Below, piece after piece: positions 29,637 through 29,783 of a DNA stretch of 64,000 nucleotides. The DNA is from Escherichia coli (GTDB lineage: Bacteria; Pseudomonadota; Gammaproteobacteria; Enterobacterales; Enterobacteriaceae). Both the position numbers and the translations under genes were made by a program. Under the pieces are notes generated by a model, which saw nothing but the letters and a program-made list of their open reading frames with translations, ran no database searches and was not told where the DNA came from. The stretch lies in assembly GCF_003334305.1 (NCBI RefSeq), contig NZ_QOWS01000012.1; one strand, given 5' to 3'. Each line of letters begins with the position of its first letter. Position 1 is the first letter of the stretch.

Positions 29637-29783
29637 TTTTGTCTTCCGGGACCAGTGGTAAATACCCATCAGAATAGAGGATGGCTGGTCGAAATTGAAG
29701 CGAGAAGGGGGAAGAATGCGGCAGATAACCCGTATCTTTACGTTGCCTTACGTTCAGACGGGGCCGAAGCCCCGTCGTCGTCA

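What the first reader, a model, noticed from the sequence alone, without database searches (positions are those of the whole stretch)
29757..29776. Stable tetraloop hairpin immediately after tolC, before ygiB
On the tolC (minus) strand the sequence reads gacggggc-ttcg-gccccgtc, a perfect 8-bp GC stem closed by a UUCG tetraloop, starting 8 nt after the tolC stop and not followed by a U-tract. This suggests a 3' stabiliser or partial terminator that lets a fraction of transcripts continue into ygiB-ygiC.
Basis: partly seen in the sequence, partly recalled or inferred. Interest (0 to 1): 0.2.

Follow-up and report, generated by a model that had tools for sequence, protein, structure and literature searches.

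The report
Hairpin marking the tolC mRNA end
The hairpin is real and sits where published E. coli 3'-end mapping places the end of the tolC message; it is an ordinary protective stem-loop at a leaky, apparently Rho-dependent stop, lying just upstream of a separate stress-regulated promoter for ygiB-ygiC.

Summary
On the minus strand, GACGGGGC-UUCG-GCCCCGUC (29776..29757) forms a perfect 8-bp stem (-16.6 kcal/mol, z -4.3). Its first base is the 8th nt after the tolC stop, and no U-tract follows. The window is E. coli.

Term-seq (Adams 2021) places the primary tolC 3' end at MG1655 3179628, which is window 29752, 5 nt after the stem. Its intrinsic-terminator score is 1.32 (threshold 3). Its Rho score is 2.16, inside a called Rho-termination region. 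This fits the class of Dar & Sorek 2018: a U-less stem-loop that protects Rho-terminated transcripts from 3' exonucleases, with a C-rich, G-poor tract downstream (present here).

Across 80 Enterobacteriaceae loci, stem-loops of many different sequences occupy the same site, and several carry T5-7 tails (canonical terminators).

Five nt downstream lies an invariant CpxR-type box (GTAAG-N5-GTAAA, 29751..29737) and a conserved -35/-10. In Citrobacter rodentium this intergenic region is a Cpx-activated ygiB promoter. So ygiBC expression is not only read-through.

Verdict: ordinary, and essentially already on record. Low interest.

The parts
29784..31265 (-). tolC coding sequence (stop TGA 29786..29784)
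   Evidence: Annotated tolC in E. coli genomes. The ATG at 31265 matches the 1482-nt MG1655 gene.
29781..29783 (-). second in-frame TGA (tandem stop). Its T is C in about a fifth of E. coli genomes.
29757..29776 (-). the hairpin: 8-bp G+C stem closed by a cUUCGg tetraloop, at the 3' end of tolC mRNA
   Evidence: An exact 28-30-mer is present in 5232 of 5426 E. coli genomes. Stem-loops of other sequences occupy the same site in other genera.
29752..29752 (-). published steady-state 3' end of tolC mRNA (MG1655 3179628, the C of ...GUCUGAAC), 5 nt after the stem
   Evidence: Adams et al. 2021, supplementary files 1-3. Coordinates were mapped through NC_000913.3.
29737..29751 (-). CpxR-type box GTAAG-GCAAC-GTAAA (DNA element), 5 nt downstream of the hairpin
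   Evidence: It is the only match in the window, with 0.21 expected by chance. Its columns are invariant in 20 genera-level sequences. A putative CpxR site between tolC and ygiB is reported in C. rodentium.
29680..29735 (-). C-rich, G-poor untranslated tract; candidate Rho loading (rut) region
   Evidence: up to C14/G3 per 30 nt; the same spacer is 43.5% C and 10.8% G on average in 78 loci. That it acts as a rut site is inferred.
29694..29699 (-). candidate -35 (TTCAAT) of the ygiB promoter
   Evidence: T56, T57 and A59 are invariant across 17 genera. It lies 17 nt from the -10. Inferred; no start-site data were found.
29671..29676 (-). candidate -10 (TATTCT; TATCCT in most genera) of the ygiB promoter
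   Evidence: CTATyCT invariant; the distance from box centre to -10 clusters at about 47, 57.5 and 68 nt, which preserves helical phase.
28965..29636 (-). ygiB coding sequence
27799..28959 (-). ygiC coding sequence

Best explanation
The hairpin is the 3'-end-defining stem-loop of the tolC message. RNA polymerase reads past the tolC stop into about 150 nt of untranslated RNA. This RNA contains the hairpin and then a C-rich, G-poor tract. Rho loads there on a fraction of transcripts and terminates them further downstream. 3'-to-5' exonucleases then trim these RNAs, and any cleaved read-through RNA, back to the very stable cUUCGg hairpin. That leaves the sharp 3' end 5 nt after the stem and stabilises tolC mRNA. 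The remaining polymerases continue into ygiB-ygiC. Immediately downstream, a CpxR box and a conserved sigma-70-type promoter give ygiBC its own stress-inducible transcription, so the hairpin marks the boundary between two overlapping transcription units. What is shown: the structure, the mapped 3' end, bicyclomycin sensitivity, the composition of the downstream tract, conservation of a stem-loop at this site, and the Cpx-dependent ygiB promoter in Citrobacter. What is inferred: the Rho loading site, exonuclease trimming as the source of the end, the effect on tolC mRNA half-life, and the exact ygiB start site in E. coli.
For: Structure: -16.6 kcal/mol, z -4.3. A Term-seq primary tolC 3' end lies at 3179628, which is window 29752, 5 nt after the stem. 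It was seen with 4220 reads and, in a second entry, 1585 reads. The published intrinsic-terminator score is 1.32 (<3.0). The Rho score is 2.16 and is flagged 'Yes'. A Rho-termination region is called at 3179617 with score 2.30 and p 1.6e-7. I reproduced both scores from the listed counts 197/110/161/194 and 204/107/161/194. [quoted passage not shown] C>G is present here and in 78 orthologous loci. Fourteen different stem sequences (-14.6 to -25.4 kcal/mol) end 1-9 nt before the invariant box in the 13 whose stem was traced, with at least 3 pair types at stem positions 1-11. Within E. coli, all five sampled sequence variants fall outside the 20 nt. BaeR overexpression raised tolC 1.9-fold but not ygiA/B/C. 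In C. rodentium a roughly 300-bp ygiB-lux fusion is CpxRA-dependent while tolC-lux is not.
Against: The Rho score is only just above the 2.0 cut-off and comes from 800-nt windows in a single experiment. Those windows also contain the ygiB promoter, so a bicyclomycin-induced change in that promoter could mimic read-through. No pnp/rnb mutant data for this site were found. The other data sets I tried were not held or held no usable supplements: Dar & Sorek 2018, Conway 2014, Rend-seq and the 3'-seq meta-analysis. The TERMITe and SMRT-Cappable-seq supplements were searched and list no tolC or ygiB. In several other genera the orthologous stem-loop has a T5-7 tail, so an intrinsic component in E. 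coli cannot be excluded on sequence alone. No E. coli start site for ygiB was retrieved.
Confidence: 0.68

Rival explanations
1. It is a weak intrinsic (Rho-independent) terminator: the hairpin itself makes a fraction of polymerases release the RNA despite the missing U-tract.
For: There is a G+C stem with an extra-stable tetraloop. Orthologous stem-loops in Kosakonia, Phytobacter, Entomohabitans, Cedecea and Pseudocitrobacter are followed by T5-7 and look like canonical terminators. The E. coli tail TCTGAAC aligns column-for-column with their TTTTTAC. The 3' end is sharp and lies close to the stem.
Against: Only 2 T occur in the 8 nt after the stem. The published terminator score is 1.32, below the threshold of 3. 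Read-through rises with bicyclomycin. The simple terminator scan does not call the site. From general knowledge, hairpins without a U-tract terminate E. coli RNAP poorly.
Confidence: 0.12
2. It is a processing stop only: all polymerases read through, and the 3' end arises because an endonuclease cuts the tolC-ygiBC RNA in the intergenic region and exonucleases trim back to the hairpin. No termination occurs here.
For: Adams et al. state that most non-terminator 3' ends are likely processing products, and that mapped positions are closer to processed ends than to termination sites. Co-transcription of tolC-ygiBC is reported. The hairpin would act as the same exonuclease block.
Against: The downstream/upstream coverage ratio is 0.56 and doubles with bicyclomycin. 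BaeR induction of tolC did not carry through to ygiB/C. Canonical terminators occupy the orthologous site in other genera, which argues that transcription is meant to stop here.
Confidence: 0.15
3. It is a DNA-level palindrome bound by a dimeric protein, for example as part of the regulatory region of the ygiB promoter, rather than an RNA structure.
For: It is a perfect 8-4-8 inverted repeat only 5 bp from the CpxR-type box.
Against: The stem sequence is replaced wholesale between genera while pairing is kept. The adjacent box is invariant, which is the pattern expected of an RNA structure and not of a sequence-specific site. An RNA 3' end maps right behind it.
Confidence: 0.03
4. It is a repetitive extragenic palindrome (REP-like) or other dispersed repeat, with no locus-specific role.
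For: In Salmonella, Enterobacter, Lelliottia and some Citrobacter loci, long REP-like palindromes lie between tolC and the box.
Against: The 30-mer and 40-mer around the hairpin occur once per E. coli genome: median 1, maximum 2 places. There is no second copy in the window. There is no Rfam match.
Confidence: 0.02

Closest known systems
Protective 3' stem-loops of Rho-dependent transcripts (Dar & Sorek 2018, NAR 46:6797; PMC6061677)
   Same: A stable stem-loop lies immediately upstream of a precise steady-state 3' end. There is no U-rich tail and no upstream A-tract. The sequence downstream has C over G. Read-through is sensitive to bicyclomycin.
   Different: Dependence of this particular end on PNPase or RNase II has not been tested. 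The Rho score is borderline (2.16). A promoter lies inside the presumed Rho loading and termination zone.
Canonical intrinsic terminators, including those with cUUCGg loops
   Same: It has a G+C-rich stem of 8 bp and a 4-nt UUCG loop. From my own knowledge, Tuerk et al. 1988 and d'Aubenton Carafa et al. 1990 reported such loops as common in E. coli terminators and intercistronic hairpins. It sits right after a stop codon. Orthologues in other genera do have the U-tract.
   Different: There is no U-tract in E. coli or Citrobacter. The published score is 1.32 (<3) and the site responds to Rho inhibition.
Intra-operon attenuating or stabilising hairpins that set differential expression within operons (e.g. 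the malE-malF REP, and the hairpin after pufA in the puf operon; recalled from memory)
   Same: An intercistronic stable hairpin leaves the upstream cistron's mRNA more abundant or more stable than the downstream ones. TolC is an abundant protein, about 1500 copies per cell.
   Different: It is a single short hairpin, not a REP. The downstream genes additionally have their own regulated promoter.
tolC-ygiBC operon and the Cpx-activated ygiB promoter (Dhamdhere & Zgurskaya 2010, as cited; Gilliland et al., bioRxiv 10.1101/2021.12.13.472529)
   Same: The gene order is the same, and a putative CpxR site lies in the tolC-ygiB spacer about 90-100 nt before the ygiB ATG.
   Different: Those papers do not describe the hairpin or the tolC 3' end. 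The promoter was shown in C. rodentium, not in E. coli.

Membership tests
Intrinsic (Rho-independent) terminator | G+C-rich stem-loop | tested here: met
   An 8-bp stem with 7 G-C pairs, -16.6 kcal/mol.
Intrinsic (Rho-independent) terminator | U-tract (about 4 or more U within 8 nt) directly after the stem | tested here: not met
   The tail is UGAACGUA, with 2 U. The site is not called by the terminator scan. The published Chen-model score is 1.32, below 3.
Intrinsic (Rho-independent) terminator | Termination independent of Rho | tested here: not met
   This rests on published data only. The Rho score is 2.16, flagged as lying in a Rho-termination region.
Protective 3' stem-loop of Rho-dependent transcripts (Dar & Sorek 2018) | Precise steady-state 3' end immediately downstream of a stable stem-loop | tested here: met
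   The Term-seq end lies 5 nt after the stem.
Protective 3' stem-loop of Rho-dependent transcripts (Dar & Sorek 2018) | No U-rich tail, and C over G in the downstream sequence | tested here: met
   (C14/G3 per 30 nt at 29726-29697); 43.5% C against 10.8% G in 78 loci.
Protective 3' stem-loop of Rho-dependent transcripts (Dar & Sorek 2018) | Increased read-through when Rho is inhibited | tested here: inconclusive
   The published score of 2.16-2.30 with p 1.6e-7 supports it. However, it is borderline and is confounded by the ygiB promoter inside the downstream window.
Protective 3' stem-loop of Rho-dependent transcripts (Dar & Sorek 2018) | The 3' end shifts or extends in PNPase/RNase II mutants | not testable with these tools
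   The supplementary tables of PMC6061677 are not held.
REP / BIME repeat | Many dispersed copies per genome sharing a consensus | tested here: not met
   There is one place per genome and one copy in the window.
Any Rfam RNA family | Covariance-model match | tested here: not met
   No relevant hit appeared even at E <= 10 across 27000-32500.
CpxR binding site (adjacent element, not the hairpin) | Tandem GTAAA pentamers spaced by about 5 nt upstream of a Cpx-regulated promoter | tested here: met
   GTAAG-N5-GTAAA matches 9 of 10 positions. It is invariant across genera. Its helical phasing to the -10 is preserved. Cpx dependence of the ygiB promoter is shown in C. rodentium.
CpxR binding site (adjacent element, not the hairpin) | Binding of phosphorylated CpxR | not testable with these tools
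   No binding data were found.

The most novel reading that the evidence does not exclude
The hairpin, CpxR box and promoter form one conserved 'stop-and-restart' module across Enterobacteriaceae. In this module the mode of tolC 3'-end formation has switched between a canonical intrinsic terminator (Kosakonia, Phytobacter, Cedecea and others) and a U-less, Rho-assisted protective hairpin (Escherichia, Citrobacter). The tight spacing of stem and CpxR box (mostly 3-5 nt) would be functional, for example if bound CpxR~P hinders read-through from tolC while it activates ygiBC. Envelope stress would then uncouple ygiBC from the tolC promoters.
Probability: 0.12. Interest if true: 0.4.

Novelty: already known. 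Interest (0 to 1): 0.12.

Why it matters
TolC is the shared outer-membrane exit duct of the E. coli multidrug efflux pumps, so what sets tolC mRNA stability, and how far its transcription spills into ygiBC, bears on efflux capacity. Practically, the result affects how tolC deletions and tolC-ygiBC expression data are read. The hairpin, the tolC 3' end and a Cpx-type promoter all lie within 150 nt, so a deletion or fusion that removes or retains part of this spacer can change ygiBC expression. One deposited MG1655 tolC-deletion genome ends inside the hairpin loop. Beyond that, this is a textbook-type element whose 3' end and Rho sensitivity are already in public tables.

Tried and rejected
- Rfam scan at E <= 10 gave only meaningless microRNA/snoRNA hits.
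- The terminator/promoter consensus scan found neither the hairpin nor the ygiB promoter. It also missed the Kosakonia T-tailed hairpin, because its rule needs 5 T in 8 nt starting 0-2 nt after a stem that had already absorbed part of the T run. That scan is therefore not informative here.
- I looked for independent 3'-end or start-site data. No supplements were held as text for Dar & Sorek 2018, the 3'-UTR valves paper, Conway 2014, the Rend-seq annotation paper or the 3'-seq meta-analysis. The TERMITe and SMRT-Cappable-seq supplements were searched and had no tolC/ygiB entry.
- Dhamdhere & Zgurskaya 2010, Thomason 2015 and Peters 2012 are not held.
- I read part 35 of Adams supplementary file 1 looking for the third tolC entry and overshot. 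So I can vouch for only two of the three tolC-labelled 3'-end entries.
- A single consensus structure on the box-anchored alignment was not attempted with the pair-counting tool, because the loop register shifts by 1-2 columns between genera. I counted pairs outward from each loop instead.
- A literature search for UUCG tetraloops in terminators found nothing in the held library. That background rests on my own knowledge.
- Considered and rejected: a REP element, a protein-binding palindrome, a chance palindrome, and a real 'ygiA' gene (see rivals and notes).

Full report
1. THE OBSERVATION

On the minus strand the window reads ...CGTAAC TGA TGA CGAC GACGGGGC TTCG GCCCCGTC TGAACGTAAGGCAACGTAAAGATACGGG.... 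The tolC stop is at 29786..29784, and a second in-frame TGA follows. The hairpin spans 29776..29757, exactly the coordinates given. Its first base is the 8th nt after the stop.

Alone, the 20-mer folds into the perfect 8-bp stem with a 4-nt loop at -16.6 kcal/mol. This is 97% of the ensemble, z = -4.3, and none of 200 shuffles folds as well. The same helix is kept in the 171-nt context, although that context as a whole is not unusually structured (z -1.3). The eight bases after the stem hold two T, so there is no U-tract, and the consensus terminator scan does not list the site.

Perfect 8-bp/4-nt-loop hairpins with at least 6 G-C pairs occur 4 times in the window, against 0.2 expected from dinucleotide shuffles. 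This is the only C(UUCG)G hairpin in the window with a stem longer than 4 bp. The window is E. coli. The 301-nt stretch around the site is present in all 5426 complete genomes at 95% identity or more, and is annotated tolC / ygiB (DUF1190).

2. WHAT IS ALREADY ON RECORD

In Adams et al. 2021 (eLife 10:e62438, PMC7815308), supplementary file 1 lists a 3' end at MG1655 coordinate 3179628 (+). It is classed as the primary 3' end of tolC, and also as internal to the old ygiA call. Read counts are 4220 for LB at OD 0.4, the value repeated in the LB 0.4 analysis of file 3, and 1585 in a second entry later in the file. I infer from its position that this second entry is the LB OD 2.0 tab; I did not read the tab header.

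I placed this coordinate on NC_000913.3. There tolC is 3178115-3179596, the hairpin is 3179604-3179623, and 3179628 is the C of ...GCCCCGTCTGAAC, 5 nt after the stem. This is window position 29752.

Supplementary file 3 gives this end an intrinsic-terminator score of 1.32, where the authors' threshold is 3.0. It gives a Rho score of 2.16 and flags the end as inside a Rho-termination region. Supplementary file 2 calls such a region at 3179617, with score 2.30 and p 1.6e-7. The listed counts reproduce the scores: (194/161)/(110/197) = 2.16. So the column order is untreated upstream, untreated downstream, bicyclomycin upstream, bicyclomycin downstream. Without the drug, coverage in the 800 nt downstream is 0.56 of the upstream coverage. 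With Rho inhibited it is 1.2.

3. THE CLASS IT FITS

[quoted passage not shown] These stem-loops are as strong as terminator hairpins but lack the U-tail. They protect against PNPase and RNase II, and C-over-G (rut-like) sequence lies just downstream.

Here the RNA downstream of the hairpin becomes strongly C-rich and G-poor between about 29735 and 29680, reaching C14/G3 per 30 nt. It is untranslated for 147 nt, up to the ygiB ATG at 29636. That is the situation in which Rho can load. I therefore read the hairpin as the exonuclease stop that defines and stabilises the tolC 3' end at a leaky Rho-dependent termination zone. The loading site and the trimming step are inferred, not shown.

4. COMPARATIVE EVIDENCE

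A scan of one genome per species with YgiB returned 80 Enterobacteriaceae loci. tolC lies upstream of ygiB in all but one, where the fetched stretch starts too close to ygiB.

In 78 of 81 sequences the intergenic region contains GTAAG-N5-GTAAA. The three exceptions (L018, L045, L075) show implausibly short spacers of 64-95 nt, which I take to be my tolC ORF extension running on into the spacer.

Anchoring on this box gives an ungapped alignment. In it the box is invariant and the 30 nt before it form a stem-loop whose sequence changes from genus to genus:
- E. coli and most Citrobacter: GACGGGGC-TTCG-GCCCCGTC.
- Siccibacter: CAGGCAGGGGC-ACCC-GCCCCTGCCTG.
- Pseudescherichia: GAGATGGGGGC-ACCT-GCCCCCGTTTC.
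- Yokenella, Trabulsiella, LSJC7 and RIT691: unrelated stems.

Fourteen distinct stem-loops fold at -14.6 to -25.4 kcal/mol. The 3' arm ends 1-9 nt before the box, mostly 3-5 nt, in the 13 whose stem the script traced. Stem positions 1-11, counted from the loop, each show at least three pair types. This is the signature of selection on an RNA structure and not on a DNA sequence.

In Kosakonia, Phytobacter, Entomohabitans, Cedecea and Pseudocitrobacter the stem is followed by T5-7, so these are canonical intrinsic terminators. The E. coli tail TCTGAAC aligns with their TTTTTAC. Thus 'end tolC transcripts here' is conserved, while the means differs between lineages: intrinsic terminator or U-less hairpin. 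Salmonella, Enterobacter and Lelliottia carry long REP-like palindromes at the site instead.

Within E. coli the exact 28-30-mer around the hairpin is present in 5232 of 5426 genomes, once per genome. The variants I sampled lie outside the 20 nt. They are TGATGA to TGACGA just after the tolC stop, TGAAC to TAAAC, and GACGAC to GCTGAC. I could not tabulate all variants.

The box GTAAG-GCAAC-GTAAA (29751..29737) matches the CpxR consensus GTAAA-N(4-8)-GTAAA quoted. It is the only such match in the window, with 0.21 expected.

Downstream there is a conserved block, CGCTTCAATTTCGACCA-TCATCCTCTATyCT. It has an invariant TT.A at 29699-29694 (candidate -35, TTCAAT) and CTATyCT (candidate -10, TATTCT, at 29676-29671), 17 nt apart. 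A conserved GGAAGA ribosome-binding site follows.

The variable spacer between box and promoter changes length in steps of about one helical turn. Distances from box centre to -10 cluster at 45-51, 56-58 and 67-68 nt. The resultant length is 0.90 at a 10.5-bp period, though the loci are phylogenetically related and so not independent.

Gilliland et al. (bioRxiv 10.1101/2021.12.13.472529) showed in Citrobacter rodentium that a roughly 300-bp ygiB upstream fragment drives CpxRA-dependent lux expression while tolC-lux does not respond. They noted a putative CpxR site 91 bp before the ygiB ATG. In E. coli, BaeR overexpression raised tolC 1.9-fold but not ygiA/B/C. So the junction is a boundary between two overlapping transcription units. 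Transcript levels on its two sides cannot by themselves measure termination.

6. RIVALS

- A weak intrinsic terminator remains possible. The orthologues have U-tracts. But it is disfavoured by the tail sequence, the published score and the bicyclomycin response.
- Pure processing without termination is not excluded by the 3' end alone. It is disfavoured by the coverage drop, by its Rho sensitivity, and by the presence of true terminators at the orthologous site.
- A protein-binding palindrome is contradicted by wholesale stem turnover next to an invariant box.
- A REP-like repeat is contradicted by single-copy occurrence.
- There is no Rfam match.

7. VERDICT

Every component is of a well-described kind, and the key facts are already in public tables and a preprint: the 3' end, the Rho sensitivity, the operon and the Cpx-regulated ygiB promoter. 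The only addition here is the comparative picture, which shows structure-level conservation and a switch between intrinsic and U-less hairpins next to an invariant CpxR box. Interest is low.

Noticed in passing
window 29737-29751 (-), with 29694-29699 and 29671-29676: There is an invariant CpxR-type box GTAAG-N5-GTAAA, followed by a conserved candidate -35/-10 for ygiB. The box-to-promoter distance varies between genera in steps of about 10.5 bp (47/57.5/68). No E. coli start-site or CpxR-binding data were found.
   Followed up: yes
window 29524-29784 (-): This is the old 'ygiA' ORF (86 aa). Its ATG overlaps the tolC stop in TGATGA. It is no longer annotated in NC_000913.3 (b3036 is absent). 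Three sampled genomes from the band of 1156 (of 5426) that differ slightly from the window over a 61-nt stretch read ACG (TGACGA) instead of ATG. This fits a phantom gene. It still appears as a label in the Term-seq tables.
   Followed up: partly
window 27768-27789 (-), 3' end at about 27763: The hairpin CCGGATGGC-ATTC-GCCATCCGG lies between the convergent genes ygiC and ygiD. Adams et al. list the primary ygiC 3' end at MG1655 3181617, again 5 nt after the stem and again without a clean U-tract (tail TAATTGTT).
   Followed up: partly
window 31398-31418 (-), 3' end at 31397: Adams et al. list an 'orphan' 3' end (MG1655 3177983) 132 nt upstream of the tolC ATG, 1 nt after the inverted repeat TGACTGC-N7-GCAGTCA. 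No gene lies upstream on that strand, because nudF is divergent. Its origin is unknown.
   Followed up: no
L086 (NZ_CP025268.1, an MG1655 derivative), aligned in A1: This deposited K-12 genome lacks tolC. The deletion runs from upstream of the tolC promoters to the middle of the hairpin, leaving only the loop and the 3' arm in front of the CpxR box. Such constructs remove the tolC 3'-end element and could alter ygiBC expression.
   Followed up: no
L005, L006, L019, L020, L028, L032, L042, L043, L065 and others, between tolC and the box: Salmonella, Enterobacter, Lelliottia and some Citrobacter carry long REP-like palindromes (e.g. GCTTATCGGGCCTAC...GTAGGCCGGGTAAGC) where E. coli has the short hairpin. 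In L029 the spacer is 626 nt, which suggests an insertion.
   Followed up: no
window 29637-29645 (-): The MazF-regulon paper (PMC5001579) lists ygiB with the number 6 in its table of MazF-processed transcripts. I take this to be the distance in nt to the start codon. An ACA sits in GAAGACAAAAATG just before the ygiB ATG, near that distance, which could yield a near-leaderless ygiB mRNA under stress.
   Followed up: no
L002 and L046 (genome contigs): A contig labelled 'uncultured Clostridia bacterium' MAG carries a ygiB 100% identical to E. coli. A contig labelled Chryseobacterium sp. 18061 carries an enterobacterial tolC-ygiB. These are probably mis-binned or contaminated assemblies.
   Followed up: no
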